From a virus (taxonomy: Duplodnaviria > Heunggongvirae > Uroviricota > Caudoviricetes), in the IMG/VR virus record IMGVR_UViG_2563366923_000002, positions 1-7,940 of that record: a stretch of 7,940 nucleotides of DNA. One strand, 5' to 3'. Shown here piece after piece: positions 1 through 7,940 of the stretch. Each line of letters begins with the position of its first letter. The first letter of the stretch is position 1. The position numbers were made by a program, and so were the translations under genes. The notes beneath the pieces are model-generated. The model was not told the DNA's origin and did not search any database. It saw nothing but the letters and a program-made list of their open reading frames with translations.

Positions 1-1152
1 ATGCTCACCGTTAAGCAGATTGAAGCAGCAAAGCCGAAAGAAAAACCATACCGCCTTCTCGATGGTAATGGCCTGTACCTTTATGTTCCTGTATCCGGGA
101 AAAAGGTATGGCAGCTTCGCTACAAGATTGACGGTAAGGAGAAAATCCTGACCGTCGGAAAATATCCGCTTATGACTTTGCAGGAAGCAAGGGATAAGGC
201 ATGGACTGCGAGGAAAGACATCTCGGTTGGCATCGATCCGGTAAAGGCGAAAAAGGCTTCGTCTAACAACAATTCATTTAGTGCGATTTACAAGGAATGG
301 TACGAGCACAAGAAGCAAGTCTGGTCAGTAGGCTATGCAACTGAACTTGCAAAAATGTTTGATGACGACATTTTACCTATCATCGGCGGCCTTGAAATTC
401 AGGATATTGAGCCGATGCAACTGCTGGAAGTAATCCGCAGATTTGAAGATCGCGGTGCAATGGAACGAGCCAACAAAGCACGCAGAAGATGCGGCGAGGT
501 TTTCCGTTACGCTATTGTCACCGGTAGGGCTAAATATAACCCGGCACCTGACCTTGCTGACGCCATGAAGGGATACCGCAAGAAGAACTTCCCGTTTTTA
601 CCTGCCGACCAGATCCCAGCATTCAATAAAGCACTGGCAACATTTTCAGGAAGTATCGTATCGCTTATTGCGACTAAAGTTTTACGCTACACAGCCCTCA
701 GAACAAAAGAGCTTCGTTCCATGCTATGGAAGAACGTCGATTTTGAAAACAGGATTATCACCATCGACGCCAGTGTGATGAAGGGCCGCAAGATTCATGT
801 AGTACCGATGTCAGACCAGGTGATTGAACTTCTCACTACGCTAAGCTCAATCACTAAACCAGTGTCAGAGTTTGTTTTTGCCGGGCGCAACGATAAGAAG
901 AAGCCAATCTGCGAGAACGCGGTATTGCTTGTGATCAAACAAATTGGCTATGAAGGGCTGGAAAGCGGTCACGGATTCAGGCATGAATTCAGCACGATTA
1001 TGAACGAGCACGAATGGCCTGCTGATGCTATTGAAGTGCAACTGGCACATGCCAACGGCGGATCTGTGCGCGGTATTTACAACCATGCGCAGTATCTCGA
1101 TAAGCGCAGGGAGATGATGCAGTGGTGGGCGGACTGGATTGATGGGAAATGA
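1..1152 (+). CDS. intS: Phage integrase, P4-family tyrosine recombinase (383 aa)
   Basis: N-terminus MLTVKQIEAAKPKEKPYRLLDGNGLYLYV is the arm-binding domain signature of P4-like integrases. The C-terminal catalytic region has R (LRTKELR), HGFRHEF and the tyrosine in VRGIYNHAQY. The translation matches E. coli prophage integrase IntS as I recall it (memory, not a search). Stop TGA at 1150-1152. Confidence 0.93.
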   Translation: MLTVKQIEAAKPKEKPYRLLDGNGLYLYVPVSGKKVWQLRYKIDGKEKILTVGKYPLMTLQEARDKAWTARKDISVGIDPVKAKKASSNNNSFSAIYKEWYEHKKQVWSVGYATELAKMFDDDILPIIGGLEIQDIEPMQLLEVIRRFEDRGAMERANKARRRCGEVFRYAIVTGRAKYNPAPDLADAMKGYRKKNFPFLPADQIPAFNKALATFSGSIVSLIATKVLRYTALRTKELRSMLWKNVDFENRIITIDASVMKGRKIHVVPMSDQVIELLTTLSSITKPVSEFVFAGRNDKKKPICENAVLLVIKQIGYEGLESGHGFRHEFSTIMNEHEWPADAIEVQLAHANGGSVRGIYNHAQYLDKRREMMQWWADWIDGK

Positions 1153-1155
1153 TTA

Positions 1156-1177
1156 GACATTTTCTCTAGAAAATGTC
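1156..1177 (+). terminator. Inverted repeat GACATTTT-N6-AAAATGTC 4 nt after the int stop, followed by GCGCGCTTTTCAC; weak candidate int terminator or protein-binding palindrome
   Basis: Perfect 8-bp arms with a 6-nt loop (CTCTAG) read directly from the sequence. The stem is AT-rich and the T run is short and offset, so terminator function is uncertain. Confidence 0.3.
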
Positions 1178-1236
1178 TGCGCGCTTTTCACTCAACTTTA
1201 TTTCCACACTATAAAAACACAGAATCATAAGGAAAA

Positions 1237-1266
1237 TTTGGAGGTATCTACAAAACTTGATAATAT
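1237..1266 (+). promoter_or_regulatory. Possible sigma70-type promoter for the acyltransferase gene (TTGGAG, 17-bp spacer, TAATAT)
   Basis: Hexamers read by eye about 45 bp upstream of the ATG at 1308. Both are imperfect matches to consensus; no experimental basis. Confidence 0.2.
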
Positions 1267-1307
1267 CGTGACATTTTCACAAACAGAGCAACAGGATAGT
1301 AGCCAAG

Positions 1308-2372
1308 ATGAAATCTAGCACCAAACAAGATGTAGGGATACAATATTTAAGGGGGGTATCTGCTTTATATGTCGTATTTTTCCATTTTAGAGAGTTTTTA
1401 GATAATTTTTTGCCAATAGCTATGTTGGGTCAAAAATTTTTTAGCAATGGCGCTTTCGGTGTTGATATGTTTTTTATAATTAGCGGATATATTATTTCTC
1501 TTTCAACAGAAAAAAAAGACAACTCAATTGTTAAGGGATATATCATAAAAAGATTTTTCAGAATATATCCTGCTTATTTCATAGCACTCTCTATTTTGAT
1601 TATTTTATCCCCAATAAAATATTCTCACCATGATATTTTACGTTCATTTATGATGATCCACCCTGATTATCAATATAATGCACCTTACTTTGGCTATGGT
1701 GTACTATTTACAGCATGGACATTAACATACGAGATATATTTTTATATAATATTTCTAATAGGTATGTTTTTCTCACACAAACATCGCATTATATTTACAT
1801 CAACAATTGCAATATTTGCTATGATATCAATACAGCTTATTTTCAACAAATCAATAAACATTTTCCATCAGGAACAAATTAAAAATGGCGCGGGGATATT
1901 GAATGTCCCAGGAAATATAATGGTTATAGACTTTATATATGGAATGTTTATTTATAAGATTAGAAATCATTTAAAATTAAATAAATATTCTATCGCAATA
2001 TCATTTTTACTTATATCAATTGGATTTATAACAATACAATCAGGAGTAAACGCTGGGCATGGTCCACTGCAATACGGGCTTTACTCCCTAATGATTGTTC
2101 TAGGGGTTGTTATGTACGAGAAAAATAACAAAATTACCGAGATTAAGCCATTGGTTTTTCTTGGAGATATCTCATACTCAGTTTATTTGTATCATGTGAT
2201 AATTGCTACATGTGCATATTCACTCCTATTAAAAATAGGATTTTCAGGATTATCTATGTTCTCTATGATGACAGTTTTATCAATATTTCTTGCGTATATT
2301 TCATATGTTTTAATTGAAGTTCCATCAGTTAAGGTAGGGCATTTAATGTTAAAAAAACAAACGAAAGGTTAA
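1308..2372 (+). CDS. Acyltransferase family 3 integral membrane protein, likely O-antigen/LPS O-acetyltransferase (lysogenic conversion, Oac-like), 354 aa
   Basis: The N-terminal segment IQYLRGVSALYVVFFHF carries the conserved Arg and His arrangement of the first transmembrane helix of acyltransferase-3 enzymes. The whole protein is strongly hydrophobic with many predicted helices. Its position between int and tailspike matches the oac position in Sf6-type phages. Codon usage is extremely AT-rich. Confidence 0.85.
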   Translation: MKSSTKQDVGIQYLRGVSALYVVFFHFREFLDNFLPIAMLGQKFFSNGAFGVDMFFIISGYIISLSTEKKDNSIVKGYIIKRFFRIYPAYFIALSILIILSPIKYSHHDILRSFMMIHPDYQYNAPYFGYGVLFTAWTLTYEIYFYIIFLIGMFFSHKHRIIFTSTIAIFAMISIQLIFNKSINIFHQEQIKNGAGILNVPGNIMVIDFIYGMFIYKIRNHLKLNKYSIAISFLLISIGFITIQSGVNAGHGPLQYGLYSLMIVLGVVMYEKNNKITEIKPLVFLGDISYSVYLYHVIIATCAYSLLLKIGFSGLSMFSMMTVLSIFLAYISYVLIEVPSVKVGHLMLKKQTKG

Positions 2373-2448
2373 ATATTAAAAATGTTCTTCATGGACAATA
2401 GTAAAATACCACCTCCTGAGGAGTTTGTTTAGGGATAACAATAAAAAT

Positions 2449-2475
2449 AGGCATCCAAAATGAATGCCTTTTTTA
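2449..2475. terminator. Bidirectional rho-independent terminator between the convergent acyltransferase and tailspike genes
   Basis: An A-rich tract (AATAAAAATA), a stem of about 6 bp (AGGCAT/ATGCCT, 2449-2454 and 2464-2469) with a 9-nt loop, then a T run (2470-2474). It sits exactly between the two convergent stop codons (2372 and 2476) and reads as hairpin plus U-tract on either strand. Confidence 0.5.
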
Positions 2476-3744
2476 TTACTGAATAAGATAAGCAAAAAAG
2501 CTACAGGCCACTTCGCCAGAAGTGTTGTCTCTTACTATTTTTATAGTATTATCGACGACGCCTGCTGAAATATTTGTTGCAACATCAGTTGATGTCGCAA
2601 TCACACCAATAGACGATGTATTTTGAATTGATTTTATTGTTAGAGGAATTTGTACTGATGCAGATCCATCGGGAATGATAATTATTCCTGTTTGTTTATC
2701 TGGATGGCTTGGTGAATCATTATTTATGAGCCTGCAGTTTGTTGGGCCTACGCTCGCCCCTCCATTAATGACTGTATTATATAGATATGCACTAGCACCA
2801 CCACCTGCATTATCAAAAATGGAAATATCTGCCACCCTGCCACTAGTAAGAGTGCAATTAATTACCCTTACATTCGTTACTGAGTTGACAAGAAGATCCC
2901 CGATTTGTTCATCTACGAGGTTGTTATTTTGGATGATGCAATTGTTTAGAGTTACATTAGAAGGTGAAAATATGTTCTTTGTTATTTCCACCCCCCATTT
3001 TCTACTGTCTGAAAATGTAGAACCAACAGCGGTAAACATATCACTTGAGCCTTCAATAATTGCACAAGATGATGTTGAAGAGTTAGATGAAAAATACCCA
3101 CCAACCAACGTTGCTTGTTTACTGTCCTTTACTCTTAGAGCAGGACCAGTAGCAAGATCTGACATAACGTCAATCAACCATGTCCAAGCCACCCCATCAA
3201 TATCTATTGCTGATAGACCAGCGTCTTCGTAACCGCATGAATAAAATAATTCACCATGCAACTTAAGCCCCTCTGTAATTGTTGAGACATCTTTTTTTTC
3301 ACATCTAGCATAAAACCCGGAATAACAATCTGAGTATGTATTCATAAGCATTCTTGAGTTTATTTGCCCGCCTTCAAATCTTATGCCCCAACTGCTAGCT
3401 GCAAACCTGTTATGTCTAATATCAAGCTCAGCTGCAGAATACCCTGATGGTGAATATATGCATGAGTTTAAAAAAGAAAATGAACACTCTTCTATCGTAA
3501 TAAGAGGACTCTTAATTAGAAAGCCAACACAATTACTTCCACTCTTTCCATATTTTGATGTAATGTTTAACCCATAAAATCGACTAAACTCAGAACCTTT
3601 TAATAAAATAAAGCAAGCATCTCCGTTTTTTAATGGCTCAATTACACTAAGTTTTTTAGAATCTCCATAAATACAAACCACGCTGTCTATTTCAATATTA
3701 GAAATGTAATACGGTAGGTTATTTCCTGGAACATAAATTTTTTT
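2476..3744 (-). CDS. Tailspike, C-terminal receptor-binding segment (right-handed beta-helix, putative O-antigen depolymerase); reading frame is -1 relative to the head-binding segment
   Basis: The ORF frame is open back to a TAA at 3748-3750. Read through the A7 tract, the junction gives ...[43 protein letters not shown]..., the DFGA...AIQ...YVPxG motif typical of pectate-lyase-like beta-helix proteins. The rest is rich in Asn/Ser/Thr/Gly repeats typical of beta-helix tailspikes. AT-rich like the adjacent acyltransferase. Stop TAA at 2476-2478. Confidence 0.75.
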
Positions 3745-4298
3745 GTTTTAGAGCTATCACTCTTAATGGCTTGTATGGCCGAATTAAATGCAGCGCTACA
3801 ATCAGTTCCAGGGATGGCTCCAAAATCAGTTATGCTAATAATCTCTTCATTTTTATCATGTTGTGTAGTGGTTATAGATCCGTCATGCGGCTGCTTTACG
3901 AAAACAACGTGATCATTAACAAGACCTGTTAATGTATCTGATTGTAGTTCACGTTTCAGCATATCAGGGTCATACTTCAGCACATTCGGAAAATAGAACT
4001 GCTGCGAACCGTACGCATCATAAACAGCCATAGAATGGCCTTGCACAGTTACGAACTTGGCAATCTGTCCGTTATATACGGGGTAACCTGCAGCGTTAAT
4101 GATGATTGGTTGCGATACAGGAACGTGAGAGCCGTCTTCGTTCTCTACATAAACCTGAATCTGGTTTTCAGAATTTACCGGGTCAGTGTCAATTTTACCG
4201 ATATAAATTTTGCCATTGGCTACGGCTTTAAAAGAACGAGCCATAGTGAAGAGTTGCGAAGGCATGCTGACCACAACATTTGCGGTGATATCTGACAT
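3687..4298 (-). CDS. Tailspike, N-terminal head-binding domain segment (P22 gp9-like); terminates prematurely at TAG 3687-3689 after the frame break
   Basis: Translation from the ATG at 4296-4298 gives [42 protein letters not shown]...[17 protein letters not shown]...NVLKYDPD, a close match to the P22 tailspike N-terminus as recalled from memory ([42 protein letters not shown]...). GGAG lies 6-7 nt upstream of this ATG. The ORF-track start at 4346 adds 16 unlikely leader residues. Confidence 0.9.
3738..3744 (-). other. A7 homopolymer (coding strand A AAA AAA) where the tailspike reading frame breaks; candidate -1 ribosomal frameshift or slipped-strand site, or a sequencing or decay indel
   Basis: The upstream frame reads ...ACA AAA AAA TTT ATG... 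(TKKFM) and stops 17 codons later. The downstream frame reads AAA AAA ATT TAT GTT (KKIYV) and continues for about 420 codons. One extra A or a -1 slip fuses them. Confidence 0.6.
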
Positions 4299-4323
4299 TT
4301 CATTGCTCCAGACGAATGATATG

Positions 4324-4346
4324 ATGCAACCATGATGTGATTGCAT
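4324..4346. promoter_or_regulatory. Palindrome ATGCAA-N11-TTGCAT (extended imperfect 21-bp dyad TGCAACCATGATGTGATTGCA) in the divergent mnt/tailspike control region; candidate repressor operator
   Basis: Inverted repeat read directly from the sequence, 26-48 bp upstream of the tailspike ATG and upstream of the Mnt-like gene. P22 Mnt is known to bind a palindromic operator, but this sequence is not the P22 operator as I remember it. Confidence 0.3.
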
Positions 4347-4419
4347 ACCGAAATGGTACTATTGAGTATTTATCCAGTAGGTTACGATGCCATTCCACCC
4401 AACTGGTGAGGCATCAAGG

Positions 4420-4680
4420 ATGTACAGCAAATACGACGAGGCGCAGTTTCACTTGAGACTTCCGCATGAACTCCACGCGAAAATTAAGCAGCGTGCGAAG
4501 ATGAATAACAGGTCGCTGAACTCAGAGATAATTGCAGCGATTGAGGAATCATTGGATAAACAAAGCTCTGCATCAGTTTACATTGACGATGCAGAGCGTA
4601 TGGCAGAACAACAATCTGATATGGTTAAGAAAATTGTCTTTGATACGCTCAAGAAGCTATATAAAAAAGACAGCAGATAA
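4420..4680 (+). CDS. mnt: Mnt-like ribbon-helix-helix transcriptional repressor (Arc/MetJ superfamily)
   Basis: FHLRLPHELHAKIKQRAKMNNRSLNSEIIAAIEESL and DAERMAEQQSDMVKKIVFDTLKKLYKK align with P22 Mnt (FNFRMPMEVREKLKFRAEANGRSMNSELLQIVQDAL ... DAERLADEQSELVKKMVFDTLKDLYKK, from memory). The ORF is open from the ATG at 4387; the ATG at 4420 (MYSKYDEAQFHLRLP) fits the Mnt alignment better. Either start is possible. Confidence 0.85.
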   Translation: MYSKYDEAQFHLRLPHELHAKIKQRAKMNNRSLNSEIIAAIEESLDKQSSASVYIDDAERMAEQQSDMVKKIVFDTLKKLYKKDSR

Positions 4681-4700
4681 CCATCCGTTACGGAGGATTT

Positions 4701-4778
4701 ATGCACAGAGATATGCTGAATATTGCGTTCTACATATTTGGTTTTTACACGTTCCTGGTGTTTGCGAAGCTATTCTGA
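4701..4778 (+). CDS. Hypothetical 25-aa hydrophobic peptide (MHRDMLNIAFYIFGFYTFLVFAKLF), possible small single-pass membrane protein
   Basis: GGAGG at 4692-4696 lies 4 nt before the ATG, 21 nt downstream of the mnt stop on the same strand. The peptide has a charged N-terminus followed by an 18-residue hydrophobic stretch. It is too short for the ORF track and has no homology support. Confidence 0.3.
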   Translation: MHRDMLNIAFYIFGFYTFLVFAKLF

Positions 4779-6479
4779 CAGCGCATCAGACTTAGCCCCC
4801 TGAGTCAGGGCGTTAATGGCCTTTTGTGCCTGCTGCATGGCTTTCTCGAACGCTGTTGATCCGCGTGGGGTGTTTGCCATTCGGAGCATTGCATTTCTGA
4901 ATGGCTCGCTCTCATAGGCGCGAGTAAGAAGTCCGTAGCTTACCGCTGCGCCAGTTGTCGCAGGGTTCATTGCCGTCCCATACCCGATAATGAACGGGAT
5001 GGTTTGCTGCCCTGTTGGTGTTGTTACTGCCGCTTTTGCAGCCTGCTGCGTGGATTGCAGGTAGTTTTTCAATCCTTTCAGATAAGCAGCGTCCTGCCCC
5101 TTAAATGTGATGCCAGTCTGGTTTTGCAGGATGTTAAGCTGCCGAAGGAACTGGTCAGGGGATCCGCCAGATTTCTCCATCGCCTTTCCAATGATGCCAT
5201 TGCGCATTTGCGCCCTGCCAACACGACCAACTGAGTTATACAGCGTCTTAATTTCCGATTTGTTCTTGCTGAATAGCATGTTGTTGACAACTTCCGGCGT
5301 CAGATCGCCTTTCATGAGAACATTCTTCAGCCTGGTATTCTTTAGTTTCGCGGCTTCGTCAGCGTAGACGGCATTGGCCTGCTGATATTTACGGAGAGTA
5401 ATAGCACCGCCAGCCAGCACACCAACGCCTAAATCGGTGGCGAGTGCTTCCGCATCATCTTTCGCACTGTTTGCAGCAAGTGATCCAACTGCGTTTTCTG
5501 CTAGAAGGCGAGTTGCCCCCTGAGCAATTCGACCAGCAAGTGTTGGTGACTGTGTTGCCGCTCTCTCAACGCCAGCAGGAGTGAGGTAAGGCAATGCTTC
5601 AGCAAATACCCTTCCCTCTGTCGTTTGTGGAGTCAGCGCGCCTTGCTGAAGGCCAAAGTCCTGCTCTAATCCCTGCGTTGTTACTCGTGGTGCTGGTTGA
5701 TATGTACCATCGCCAATGCCGAGTTTACCTCCAGCCCAAGCCGCCGCGCTTGTTACAGCATCAGTGAGTTCAGCAGGTATGTTCGCTACGTTGATTCCTG
5801 CCTGTAGTAAGCCGCGCCCGGTTTCAGCAAGTCCATTACCAAGGTCAGACATTATTCCGCCTTGCTGCTGAACAGGTTTCGGTGCGACAGAACTTACGGG
5901 TTGAGGTGGCTGCTGACTGGCTGCCTGCTGCTCAATCTGAGCAAATGGATTATTTGGGTCTGACTGCACGCCTGATGCCGATACTTGTTCGGATGACTGT
6001 GCTTCCAGTTGTGCAAACGGGTTGTTAGGGTCTTGCTGAGGATGTACCTTTGCAGAGGTGGCGCGCTGTTCGACTGTTGAGTCTGTCACCGGGTCACCCG
6101 CCCATTGAGCAAAGCGATCATCAACGTAACCGCGGCCTTCAGGTCCTAGCGTATATTCACCACGCTTTGCCTTCATAACGTTGCCGGGACCGTCGTGATA
6201 AGCCTGAAGAGCGTCACGCCAGTTACCAAACTGCTGGTACATCTTTGCCAGATAGCGCGCGCCAGCGTCAGCCTGATATTCGGGGTTTTGCATTTGCTCA
6301 TCGGTATAACCCATATCACGCCATGTCCCAGGCATGACCTGAGTCAATCCTACAGCCCCGGCGGAGCTTACTGCGGCAGGGTTGTAAGAAGACTCCTTGG
6401 CACCCAGTGCAGTCATCAACCCTTCTGGCACACCGTAACGTGCGCCAGCCTGCTCTAACAAATCACGGTAATTAGCCAT
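4770..6479 (-). CDS. Virion internal/ejection-type protein with N-terminal lytic transglycosylase (SLT) domain, 569 aa
   Basis: GAKESSYNPAAVSSAGAVGLTQVMPGTW is the classic SLT motif (catalytic Glu in ES, then S...GA.GL.Q). No signal peptide. It is followed by a Q/P/S-rich linker with a duplicated DPNNPFAQ(L/I)E motif and an Ala/Gly-rich C-terminal region. Its ATG (6477-6479) abuts the TAA stop (6480-6482) of the upstream gene. Confidence 0.8.
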   Translation of the reverse strand: MANYRDLLEQAGARYGVPEGLMTALGAKESSYNPAAVSSAGAVGLTQVMPGTWRDMGYTDEQMQNPEYQADAGARYLAKMYQQFGNWRDALQAYHDGPGNVMKAKRGEYTLGPEGRGYVDDRFAQWAGDPVTDSTVEQRATSAKVHPQQDPNNPFAQLEAQSSEQVSASGVQSDPNNPFAQIEQQAASQQPPQPVSSVAPKPVQQQGGIMSDLGNGLAETGRGLLQAGINVANIPAELTDAVTSAAAWAGGKLGIGDGTYQPAPRVTTQGLEQDFGLQQGALTPQTTEGRVFAEALPYLTPAGVERAATQSPTLAGRIAQGATRLLAENAVGSLAANSAKDDAEALATDLGVGVLAGGAITLRKYQQANAVYADEAAKLKNTRLKNVLMKGDLTPEVVNNMLFSKNKSEIKTLYNSVGRVGRAQMRNGIIGKAMEKSGGSPDQFLRQLNILQNQTGITFKGQDAAYLKGLKNYLQSTQQAAKAAVTTPTGQQTIPFIIGYGTAMNPATTGAAVSYGLLTRAYESEPFRNAMLRMANTPRGSTAFEKAMQQAQKAINALTQGAKSDALSE

Positions 6480-7484
6480 TTACTGCCCCAAAGATGGAAG
6501 ATATCCGTAGCGATTAATGAAGTCGATTGACAGCTCGGGGTGCTGCTTCAGGTAATCTATAGAAGCCTGAGGCGCTTCCACTCGCTTGATACCGTTTTGC
6601 TGAACGTACTTACCAACCGCCTCATTACGCTTCTGGTTGAGCGTGTTCAGGATGACGCCAGCGTTGCGACGAAAGGACTCCTCGCTCTGCGAGTTCTGCA
6701 GCGAACCAACAGCCTGGTCGAGCTTTTTGCCCTCGGCATCAGAAAGTGCGCCCATGCCTCGCATGGCCTGAACCGCTGTCAGGTATGCTTGTGATTTAAA
6801 GGTATCAAGTCGTGCCTGAGTGTCTGCAGCCTGTGAGCCTGGAACGTTGGGGATTACTCCACGTAAGCCTGTAATGCTCTTAAGTGAAGGAGAACTAACG
6901 ATATCGTTCAGAGTGAACATGCTGGTTGTGATGGTGTTGATGCCGTCTTTGTAGCCATCATTTAGCGCTTGCTGCTTCTGCTGCAACTGCTGGTTGTTGG
7001 CTGCTATGCGGCTCTGTATTTCCTGGCGCTTCAGGTCGTTAGTTTCTGCTGATAGCATCCGGTCAAGGCGCTTATTTTCGTTGTTAATGCGGTTTGTTTC
7101 TGCGTCCAGGTTAATGCGCTGCTGACCTAAATTCGCCTGGATATCTTGTCCGCGCATTGTGATTGCCTGATTCCGAGCGGCGGTTTGCGAATCCAGATCC
7201 TGACCGCGCATGGTAACCTGTCGACCCTGCATTTTATCCTGTAGGTCAAAGTATTTTTCGGGCCCGAGACTGTTCATCCCCAGGTGATCGACAAATTCGC
7301 CGAACTGCCGCGGGTTCTGTTGGTACATCTGAGCGACGTCATGAGGATTAACGCCAACACGAGCTAACTCACCGGCGTTGTTTTGCAGCCATGATTGCAT
7401 TGCTTCTGGAGAAGATGACGCAAGACGTGCGCCAGCCGCTAATGTACCGATAGAATTACGCTGGTCTTCATCAATGAATCCCAT
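6480..7484 (-). CDS. Putative virion/ejection protein, Gln/Asn-rich with coiled-coil-like repeats, 334 aa; start uncertain, possibly 5'-truncated
   Basis: Long ORF tightly coupled to the downstream SLT gene. Contains a tandem peptide repeat (VTMRGQDLDSQTAARNQ / AITMRGQDIQANLGQQR). The ATG at 7484 has only AGG one nt upstream, and the frame stays open a further 24 codons to a stop at 7557-7559 with no alternative start. Confidence 0.6.
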   Translation of the reverse strand: MGFIDEDQRNSIGTLAAGARLASSSPEAMQSWLQNNAGELARVGVNPHDVAQMYQQNPRQFGEFVDHLGMNSLGPEKYFDLQDKMQGRQVTMRGQDLDSQTAARNQAITMRGQDIQANLGQQRINLDAETNRINNENKRLDRMLSAETNDLKRQEIQSRIAANNQQLQQKQQALNDGYKDGINTITTSMFTLNDIVSSPSLKSITGLRGVIPNVPGSQAADTQARLDTFKSQAYLTAVQAMRGMGALSDAEGKKLDQAVGSLQNSQSEESFRRNAGVILNTLNQKRNEAVGKYVQQNGIKRVEAPQASIDYLKQHPELSIDFINRYGYLPSLGQ

Positions 7485-7606
7485 GCCTTTACGAACGGAT
7501 TCAATCTGGTCTGGATATTGAGTATACCCCTCCGAATGAGACTCAACAAGCTGGAGCTAGACTACCAGCCACCACACCACCAAAGCTAACTGACAGGAGA
7601 ATCCAG

Positions 7607-7692
7607 ATGGATGCACAAACACGCCGCCGCGAACGTCGCGCAGAGAAACAGGCTCAATGGAAAGCAGCAAATCCCCTGTTGGTTGGGGTACT
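7607..7692 (+). pseudogene. N: 5' fragment of a lambda-type N antiterminator gene (arginine-rich boxB-binding peptide), diverging after about codon 28
   Basis: AGGAG at 7595-7599 with 7-nt spacing to the ATG at 7607. Translation MDAQTRRRERRAEKQAQWKAANPLLVGV equals the N-terminus of phage lambda N as I recall it, then continues as unrelated LIQYQRENALCVMQMWCPRTRKTN with a stop at 7763-7765. No nutL boxB hairpin found upstream. Confidence 0.7.
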
Positions 7693-7712
7693 CATTCAGT
7701 ATCAGAGGGAAA

Positions 7713-7940
7713 ATGCGCTATGTGTCATGCAAATGTGGTGCCCAAGGACCAGAAAAACGAACTAAATCTGAAGCGATTTCTTCATGGAATAGTCGAATGA
7801 AAGTATGGGTTTATGATCCAGAAACCATATTAAACGCTGAAGAGCGCAGGAGAACGGAAGTCTATATTCATAACCTTAATGAAGATGGATTTACACCAGT
7901 GCTTGTAAAGGCTACTCCGCAGGAGGTTACCGGCGTGTAA
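7713..7940 (+). CDS. Small protein with Lar-like (restriction alleviation family) C-terminal motif, 75 aa from the ATG at 7713; possibly a truncated or degenerate family member
   Basis: VSCKCGAQGPEKRTKSEAISSWNSR resembles the second zinc-knuckle and C-terminal region of Lar-family proteins (C..CGA.GP...EAI.AWN.R, recalled consensus), but the first CPFCG knuckle is absent. AGAGGG lies 4-5 nt before the ATG. The ORF-track version starts at 7611 and overlaps the N fragment in another frame, so that upstream part is probably not real. Stop TAA at 7938-7940. Confidence 0.4.
   Translation: MRYVSCKCGAQGPEKRTKSEAISSWNSRMKVWVYDPETILNAEERRRTEVYIHNLNEDGFTPVLVKATPQEVTGV

What the first reader, a model, noticed from the sequence alone, without database searches (positions are those of the whole stretch)
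7446..7606. The Gln-rich virion gene has an implausible start and may be truncated at the lambda-like junction
The only ATG (7484) has a very weak, badly spaced Shine-Dalgarno, yet the frame stays open upstream to a stop at 7557-7559, roughly where lambda-like sequence begins. A strong GGAGGGG on the minus strand (about 7526-7532) is not followed by a start codon. In P22-type late operons the ejection genes follow further virion genes (gp7/gp14 equivalents), but here the upstream neighbour is a divergent early-type fragment. Loss of the 5' part of the operon by recombination fits this.
Basis: partly seen in the sequence, partly recalled or inferred. Interest (0 to 1): 0.4.

Follow-up and report, generated by a model that had tools for sequence, protein, structure and literature searches.

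The report
Truncated phage ejection-protein pseudogene
The odd-looking gene start is the broken end of a phage DNA-ejection protein gene that lost its first 96 codons when a 2.4-kb deletion joined it to a lambda-type N-gene leader inside a decaying E. coli prophage, which is ordinary prophage decay.

Summary
The minus-strand ORF 6480-7484 (334 aa) is the 3' part of a P22 gp20 / Sf6 gp12-type ejection-protein gene. Intact homologues are 443 aa. The window's ATG at 7484 is their internal Met110, and homology starts at Thr97.

All phage homology stops at 7524. From 7523 the sequence is 100% identical to the leader and first 28 codons of a lambda-type N gene on the opposite strand. The joint carries a 2-bp TA microhomology.

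E. coli 730V1 has the same locus at 100% identity but undeleted. It holds an extra 2373 bp here: the first 287 bp of gene 20 with its ribosome-binding site, a KilA-N ORF, Rz/Rz1 fragments, a cI-like repressor, and pL/nutL.

The window is a defective Sf6-like prophage at argW-dsdC, identical to E. coli KTE233. The truncated protein occurs on 59 contigs in public assemblies, so this is not an assembly error.

The lost N-terminus aligns to the part of P22 gp20 that a 2026 preprint places in the gp7 channel and the outer membrane. No promoter-like site lies upstream. The Shine-Dalgarno match is -3.2 kcal/mol, against -8.4 at the true start. The gene is most likely a dead pseudogene. Low interest.

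The parts
6480..7523 (-). 5'-truncated remnant of a P22 gp20 / Sf6 gp12-type ejection-protein gene: codons 97-443 plus the stop TAA at 6482-6480. The mechanically called ORF is 6480-7484.
   Evidence: 100% identical to residues 97-443 of the 443-aa 730V1 protein and 97% to IME10 gp20. Pfam PF16928 is covered over positions 88-217/218 only. Phage DNA homology ends at 7524 in more than 15 phages.
7482..7484 (-). ATG taken as the start. It is the internal Met110 codon of the intact gene.
   Evidence: Alignment. SD duplex is -3.2 kcal/mol with AAAGG 1 nt from the ATG.
7523..7524 (.). Deletion joint. A 2-bp TA is shared by both parental sequences.
   Evidence: Three-way alignment of the window with the N side and the gene-20 side of 730V1. 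BLAST boundaries are 7524 (phage gene 20) and 7523 (N leader).
7525..7559 (-). Eleven in-frame sense codons (LQLVESHSEGY) plus the stop TAG at 7559-7557. This is the antisense of the N leader, not gene-20 sequence.
   Evidence: Codon list. Identity to the N-leader side of 730V1.
7527..7533 (-). GGAGGGG: a chance Shine-Dalgarno-like string, the complement of CCCCTCC in the N leader. No start codon follows.
   Evidence: -10.0 kcal/mol; no ATG/GTG/TTG at 4-12 nt.
7523..7606 (+). Last 84 bp of a lambda/HK544-type N leader. pL and nutL are missing.
   Evidence: 100% identical to HK544, HK446 and mEp213 over 7523-7690. In 730V1 the sequence continues upstream into text I recognise from memory as lambda nutL boxA/boxB and the pL transcript start.
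7607..7690 (+). N': the first 28 codons of antiterminator N (arginine-rich motif only), then out of frame.
   Evidence: Pfam PF11438 N36, residues 2-28, E 6e-20. The identical 84 bp in 730V1 (record 1514872-1514955, which maps to window 7607-7690) is annotated there as partial N.
7691..7940 (+). Lar': a 5'-truncated Lar-like restriction-alleviation gene, joined to N' at 7689/7690.
   Evidence: 99.6% identical to Sf6 gene 20 (Lar-like) over 7689-7929. It lacks the N-terminal MNLYRCPFCGST of the Sf6 protein. The Pfam Lar match is partial and below the cut-off.
7927..7940 (-). Last codons and stop (TAA 7929-7927) of the truncated chromosomal dsdC. Its transcription points towards the truncated gene.
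   Evidence: Flank of L005 and called genes. The 730V1 annotation reads 'LysR family, missing C-terminus'.
4770..6479 (-). Intact gene-16-type ejection protein with an SLT domain, directly downstream (ATG 6479 abuts the TAA at 6482-6480).
   Evidence: PF01464 SLT; PF26808 Phage_P22_gp16.

Best explanation
The region is a deletion scar in a decaying Sf6/P22-like prophage at the argW-dsdC site of E. coli.

**Shown.** A 2373-bp deletion, measured against the otherwise 100% identical locus of strain 730V1, has one endpoint in codon 96/97 of the gene for the P22 gp20-type ejection protein. The other endpoint lies 84 bp upstream of the start of a lambda-type N gene on the opposite strand. The two ends share the dinucleotide TA. 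The deletion removed:
- the first 287 bp of gene 20;
- its ribosome-binding site;
- the cI-like repressor;
- pL and nutL.

**Inferred.** The deletion arose by illegitimate, microhomology-mediated recombination. What remains of gene 20 is a promoterless, start-less 3' fragment. The '334-aa ORF' exists only because an internal Met110 codon is the first start codon after a chance stop in the antisense N leader. It most likely makes no functional protein. Even if translated, the product would lack the N-terminal segment that in P22 gp20 lines the gp7 channel and crosses the outer membrane. No virion is available for it to be packaged into.
For: - **Truncation.** The alignment with intact 443-aa homologues starts at Thr97, and ATG 7484 is Met110. 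The Pfam domain is covered 88-217/218 against 1-217. IME10 gene 20 runs 287 bp beyond the end of the match.
- **Joint.** All phage gene-20 matches end at 7524, and the 100% N-leader matches start at 7523. The three-way alignment shows the switch with a shared TA.
- **Undeleted relative.** 730V1 matches the whole window at 100% in three pieces across 11.5 kb. It carries a full gene 20, KilA-N, Rz'/Rz1', a LexA-family repressor and partial N.
- **Real allele, not an artefact.** The window is 100% identical to NCBI KB732580.1 (E. coli KTE233). The joint is also seen in independent Logan assemblies, and the 334-aa protein is on 59 contigs.
- **The prophage is defective anyway.** No head, terminase or replication genes lie between int and dsdC. 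The tailspike is frameshifted (A7 against A8), and N, Lar and dsdC are truncated.
- **No expression signals.** No sigma-70-like site was found in 6400-7940 on either strand. The SD is weak.
- **Function of the lost part.** The N-terminal ~200 residues are collinear with P22 gp20. bioRxiv 10.64898/2026.09.03.749273 assigns P22 gp20 residues 1-47 to the lumen of the gp7 channel, hydrophobic residues 51-66 to the outer-membrane helix, and residues 68-185 to PP1.
Against: - The fragment's reading frame is still intact over 347 codons, and the gene-16-type gene downstream is intact too. With 100% identity to 730V1, this is what a recent deletion would leave and says nothing about selection.
- The truncated dsdC is transcribed towards the fragment, and no terminator-like site lies between them on that strand. 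Some read-through RNA cannot be excluded.
- Expression was not measured.
- The direction of change (deletion from a 730V1-like ancestor) is inferred from one complete genome. It is forced by the fact that the full gene is the state in all phages.
Confidence: 0.93

Rival explanations
1. The truncated gene is expressed and has a function. Read-through from the dsdC promoter, or an unrecognised promoter, gives an mRNA. Translation from ATG 7484 then yields a C-terminal gp20 fragment (periplasmic PP1-PP3 part). This fragment might, for example, interfere with channel assembly by incoming P22-like phages.
For: - The frame is open for 334 codons and the downstream gene-16-type ORF is intact.
- dsdC' points into the region, with no terminator-like site on that strand.
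- The allele is present on 59 contigs and persists in a recombinant background, L006.
Against: - The SD is very weak and badly spaced (-3.2 kcal/mol).
- No promoter-like site was found.
- There is no sequence variation within the fragment between carriers, so there is no sign of purifying selection.
- The product has no signal sequence or N-terminal membrane segment. In P22, ejection proteins reach the envelope only by ejection from a virion (established P22 biology).
- Neighbouring genes are decaying as well.
Confidence: 0.04
2. The joint is an assembly or scaffolding artefact that falsely joins two prophage fragments.
For: None of 5426 complete E. coli genomes contains the joint. The scan of GTDB species-representative genomes found no exact match.
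Against: The identical joint lies inside a 4.9-Mb NCBI scaffold and in contigs of 52-64 kb assembled independently from at least three other sequencing runs. The chromosomal flanks (dsdC'-dsdX-dsdA-emrY) are the same in all of them.
Confidence: 0.01
3. It is a natural mosaic boundary of a viable phage in which a shorter ejection protein starts near 7484 next to an early-region module.
For: P22-like phages are highly mosaic, and lambda-type N and Lar modules occur in them.
Against: - The element between intS and dsdC' is about 8 kb and has no head, terminase, replication or lysis genes.
- N is cut to 28 codons and Lar is cut at its 5' end.
- The N leader and the gene-20 fragment diverge from the joint, leaving neither with a promoter.
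- The breakpoint falls inside a conserved domain.
Confidence: 0.01

Closest known systems
P22 gp20 / Sf6 gp12 ejection (E) proteins, Pfam PF16928 Inj_translocase
   Same: Residues 97-443 are 97-100% identical to full-length E. coli and IME10 homologues. The N-terminal half of the family is collinear with P22 gp20 and Sf6 gp12. The gene-16-type SLT protein follows directly, as in P22, Sf6 and IME10.
   Different: It lacks residues 1-96. By alignment with P22 gp20 these are the channel-lining segment, the outer-membrane helix and the start of PP1. It also lacks its own start codon and RBS, the upstream genes 7 and 14, and any late promoter.
Cryptic argW prophages of E. coli (CPS-53/KpLE1 of K-12; Sf6/HK620/Kapi1-type prophages that integrate at argW)
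   Same: IntS integrase next to tRNA-Arg, followed by an O-antigen-modifying acyltransferase and tailspike, with dsdCXA on the far side. The Sf6 attP core lies upstream of int, which gives this prophage order. Kapi1 integration at argW is stated in the abstract of PMC8787464. The comparison with K-12 CPS-53 is from my own knowledge.
   Different: This remnant has its own set of internal deletions (gene 20'/N leader, N'/Lar', Lar'/dsdC') and a frameshifted tailspike.
Defective prophage of E. coli O19:H7 730V1 (NZ_CP061764.1, 1514622-1526137)
   Same: 100% identical over all 7940 window bases, with the same N'/Lar' and Lar'/dsdC' joints.
   Different: 730V1 keeps 2373 bp that the window lacks, has an intact tailspike (A8), and carries an ISKpn26-type IS5 element between the acyltransferase gene and intS.

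Membership tests
P22 gp20-type ejection protein (PF16928 Inj_translocase) | Significant match to the family profile | tested here: met
   E 1.5e-29, 103.7 bits against a cut-off of 29.7. The precomputed Pfam hit on the 334-aa product is the same.
P22 gp20-type ejection protein (PF16928 Inj_translocase) | Complete domain including the N-terminal ~100 residues (gp7-channel segment and outer-membrane helix in P22 gp20) | tested here: not met
   Profile positions 88-217/218 only, against 1-217 for the intact 443-aa protein. The alignment starts at Thr97. Domain roles are from bioRxiv 10.64898/2026.09.03.749273.
P22 gp20-type ejection protein (PF16928 Inj_translocase) | Own start codon with a ribosome-binding site, directly after the gene 7 homologue in the late operon | tested here: not met
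   IME10 and Sf6 have the order gene 14, gene 7, gene 20, with AAGGGG before the ATG. The window has an antisense N leader instead.
P22 gp20-type ejection protein (PF16928 Inj_translocase) | Followed by the gene 16 homologue | tested here: met
   A 569-aa SLT / Phage_P22_gp16 protein starts at 6479, one base after the stop.
P22 gp20-type ejection protein (PF16928 Inj_translocase) | Packaged in virions and ejected to form the trans-envelope channel | not testable with these tools
   There are no head or packaging genes in the element, so packaging is implausible. It was not measured.
Lambda-type antiterminator N with its pL-nutL leader | Full N protein (about 107 aa in lambda) preceded by nutL and pL | tested here: not met
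   Only residues 1-28 match (Pfam N36). Only 84 bp of leader are retained. The nutL/pL sequence is present in 730V1 but is part of the deleted 2373 bp. The lambda lengths are from my own knowledge.
Defective (cryptic) prophage at argW | Integrase next to tRNA-Arg, phage genes on one side only, essential modules missing, several disrupted genes | tested here: met
   In 730V1, tRNA-Arg lies 162 bp beyond intS. dsdC'-dsdX-dsdA lie directly beyond Lar' in KTE233 and the Logan contigs. Truncated or frameshifted genes are shown. argW itself was not seen in the KTE233 stretch that was fetched.

The most novel reading that the evidence does not exclude
The C-terminal gp20 fragment, and perhaps the intact gene-16-type SLT protein behind it, is transcribed by read-through from the truncated dsdC gene and translated from Met 7484. 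It is kept because it interferes with the ejection-channel assembly of superinfecting P22/Sf6-like phages. That would make it a domesticated decoy linked to D-serine regulation.
Probability: 0.02. Interest if true: 0.55.

Novelty: already known. Interest (0 to 1): 0.07.

Why it matters
The main value is for annotation. The 334-aa 'hypothetical protein' (ELD72641.1 in E. coli KTE233) should be marked as a 5'-truncated pseudogene of a phage DNA ejection protein. The apparent start at 7484 and the GGAGGGG are accidents of a deletion joint.

The locus is also a clean, dated example of stepwise prophage decay. An intermediate survives in strain 730V1, and the joint carries a 2-bp microhomology. Nothing here bears on an open question.

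Tried and rejected
- **Exact joint in species-representative genomes.** A 35-nt pattern scan of genome contigs gave 0 hits. The source strain is evidently not a GTDB representative. The exact-protein look-up succeeded instead.
- **Complete E. coli genomes.** None carries the joint. Only 730V1 carries the undeleted intermediate.
- **Rfam.** A permissive-threshold scan of the whole window gave no match, so no known RNA element explains the region.
- **Promoter and terminator scan of 6400-7940.** No promoter-like site on either strand. Three terminator-like sites, all on the + strand inside the gene-20 fragment, about what shuffles give.
- **PDB sequence search with the intact 443-aa protein.** No hit. 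The domain roles of the lost N-terminus therefore rest on a preprint's description of P22 gp20 plus my alignment.
- **Is the KilA-N ORF upstream of gene 20 in 730V1 a fusion with gene 7?** There is no protein similarity to IME10 gp7. At DNA level, however, the last 25 bp before the gene-20 ATG, including the RBS, are identical to IME10. Only a short gene-7 tail survives there.
- **ATT at 7505-7503 as a non-canonical start.** Rejected. It lies 21 nt from the GGAGGGG and has no other SD.
- **Python access.** Scripts could not read the loci from the E. coli collection. Those comparisons were done with the alignment tools.
- **Selection test.** A variant carrier (L006) was compared with the window. 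All 9 differences lie in the gene-16-type gene and none lie at or above position 6214, so the test says nothing about the fragment.

Full report
**What is in the sequence**

On the minus strand an ORF runs from ATG 7484 to TAA 6482-6480 (334 aa). Upstream of the ATG the frame stays open for 24 codons, back to TAG 7559-7557. None of those codons is ATG, GTG or TTG.

The only purine-rich element before the ATG is AAAGG, ending one base before it. Its best duplex with the 16S 3' end is -3.2 kcal/mol. The authentic start of the same gene in phage IME10 (AAGGGGTAATCATG) gives -8.4.

A GGAGGGG sits at 7533-7527 (-10.0 kcal/mol) with no start codon at a usable distance. Gln is the commonest residue, at 11.4%. 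The observation therefore stands, with a one-base shift for the GGAGGGG.

**What the gene is**

The product matches Pfam PF16928 (Inj_translocase, 'DNA/protein translocase of phage P22 injectosome'), but only over profile positions 88-217 of 218.

Megablast against phage genomes finds the region in many Lederbergvirus genomes, including IME10, Sf6, Sf101, Dewey and Huey. In almost all of them the match stops at window position 7524. In IME10 the match ends 287 bp short of the annotated start of gene 20, which is 1332 bp or 443 aa.

A protein alignment shows the following:
- The window's homology begins at Thr97 of the 443-aa protein.
- ATG 7484 is its internal Met110.
- The first 11 of the 24 upstream codons (LQLVESHSEGY) have no counterpart in the family.

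P22 gp20 (471 aa) and Sf6 gp12 (431 aa) are collinear with the 443-aa protein over the N-terminal ~200 residues.

**What lies on the other side**

From 7523 to 7690 the plus strand is 100% identical to the N region of HK544, HK446 and mEp213.
- 7607-7690 encodes the first 28 residues of antiterminator N (Pfam N36, E 6e-20).
- 7523-7606 is the last 84 bp of its leader.

At 7689/7690 this joins a Lar-like gene that is 99.6% identical to Sf6 gene 20. That gene lacks the first ~12 codons, which include the CPFCG motif.

The N fragment and the gene-20 fragment diverge from the joint, so each has lost whatever lay upstream of it.

**The undeleted relative and the breakpoint**

E. coli O19:H7 730V1 matches all 7940 bases at 100% identity, but in three pieces spread over 11.5 kb. 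At this locus it holds, in order:
- Lar';
- N' (annotated partial);
- a LexA-family (cI-like) repressor;
- Rz1'/Rz fragments;
- a KilA-N ORF;
- a complete 443-aa 'phage DNA ejection protein';
- the SLT protein.

Between N' and the repressor gene, its DNA contains sequence I recognise from memory as lambda nutL (boxA/boxB) and the start of the pL transcript. Directly before gene 20 it keeps the IME10-type RBS.

A three-way alignment places the switch at GGGGTA-TA-CTCAATATCC. The window follows the N side through 7523 and the gene-20 side from 7524, and both parents share the TA. Against 730V1 the window lacks 2373 bp (L003 3041-5413). It also lacks the IS5-family element that 730V1 carries between the acyltransferase gene and intS.

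**Is the joint real?**

The 334-aa protein is on record for E. coli KTE233 (ELD72641.1, 'hypothetical protein A191_00367') and on 59 contigs in total. The NCBI scaffold KB732580.1 is 100% identical to window 480-7940, which is all of the window that the 13-kb locus fetched around the gene reaches. Independent Logan assemblies carry the same joint.

One of those assemblies (L006) is identical from 6214 to 7940. It then differs in the 3' part of the gene-16-type gene and has a different tailspike. The deletion allele has therefore persisted through later recombination.

None of 5426 complete E. coli genomes has the joint. Only 730V1 has the intermediate.

**Context**

The window is the whole of a defective Sf6-like prophage.
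- It starts at the intS ATG. In 730V1, tRNA-Arg lies 162 bp beyond intS.
- It ends at the Lar' stop. Beyond that lie a truncated dsdC (128 aa), then dsdX and dsdA.
- The Sf6 attP core lies upstream of int, which explains why int, the acyltransferase gene and the tailspike gene sit together at one prophage end.

The other window genes are:
- an intact 29%-GC acyltransferase gene;
- a tailspike gene broken by an A7-for-A8 frameshift at 3738-3744;
- an Arc/Mnt-type gene;
- an intact gene-16-type SLT protein gene.

There are no head, terminase, replication or complete lysis genes.

**How it most likely 'works'**

It most likely does not. The following are shown:
- The fragment has lost its start codon, its RBS and the genes upstream of it.
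- No sigma-70-like site lies anywhere in 6400-7940.

The following are inferred:
- In P22-like phages the late operon is read from a single late promoter far upstream (established P22 biology). That promoter is absent from this element.
- The only conceivable transcription is read-through from dsdC'. Its ORF ends at 7929-7927 on the same strand, with no terminator-like site in between.
- Translation from Met110 would give a protein without the N-terminal part. In P22 gp20 that part comprises residues 1-47 inside the gp7 channel, a hydrophobic helix at about 51-66 in the outer membrane, and the start of PP1 at 68-185 (bioRxiv 10.64898/2026.09.03.749273; mapped by the alignment).
- Ejection proteins reach the envelope by being ejected from a virion, and this element cannot build one.

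The intact frame is what a recent deletion would leave. There is no variation within the fragment from which selection could be judged.

**Comparison with what is known, and verdict**

This is a member by descent of the gp20/Inj_translocase family, but an incomplete one. It fails the tests for a complete domain, its own start and upstream synteny. It is best filed as a pseudogene in a cryptic argW prophage of the CPS-53/Sf6 kind.

- The breakpoint is 7523/7524.
- The joint carries a TA microhomology.
- The loss was stepwise, with an intermediate surviving in 730V1.

Interest is low and the kind of feature is already known. The only non-trivial possibility left open is an expressed C-terminal fragment with an anti-phage role, which I put at about 2%.

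Noticed in passing
window 3738-3744 (minus strand); ORFs 2476-3681 and 3687-4346: The tailspike gene is frameshifted. It has a run of 7 A where E. coli 730V1 has 8 and a whole 607-aa tailspike. The same split into a 203-aa head-binding part and a 401-aa ORF is called in three independent assemblies (L004, L005, L007). It could be a fixed inactivation or slippage at a homopolymer.
   Followed up: partly
window 7607-7940 (+): A second deletion joint lies at 7689/7690. The first 28 codons of lambda-type N are fused out of frame to a Lar-like gene that lacks its first Cys pair (CPFCG). For the identical sequence in 730V1, RefSeq still annotates a Lar-family protein, which in window coordinates starts at TTG 7683.
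   Followed up: partly
window 7927-7940 (-) and L005 5172-5558: The chromosomal regulator gene dsdC is cut to 128 aa by a third joint (Lar'/dsdC'), and its ORF ends inside the window. dsdX and dsdA are intact. These strains may have altered D-serine regulation, and dsdC transcription runs antisense into the prophage remnant.
   Followed up: no
window 1308-2372 (+): An intact 354-aa acyltransferase (Acyl_transf_3) gene with only 29% GC lies between intS and the tailspike gene. It is probably the O-antigen-modifying cargo gene, and it is still intact in this remnant. In L004 it is shortened to 301 aa by a 1-bp indel.
   Followed up: no
L006 (Logan SRR28613074) 7006-12458, against window 2476-6213: A carrier of the same gene-20'/N joint has a 797-aa gene-16-type protein and a 669-aa pectate-lyase-type tailspike in place of the window's versions. 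Identity to the window is perfect from 6214 to 7940, and the first differences appear at 6213. The distal part of the remnant has been exchanged by recombination.
   Followed up: partly
L003 (730V1) 11842-12986: An ISKpn26-type IS5 element sits between the acyltransferase gene and intS in 730V1 and is absent from the window. Each lineage therefore has its own later event.
   Followed up: no
protein cluster: Several members of the 90% cluster of this ejection protein, in Shigella flexneri and E. coli, are named 'acyltransferase' in NCBI records, including full-length 443-aa ones. This looks like a propagated misannotation from the neighbouring oac-type gene.
   Followed up: no
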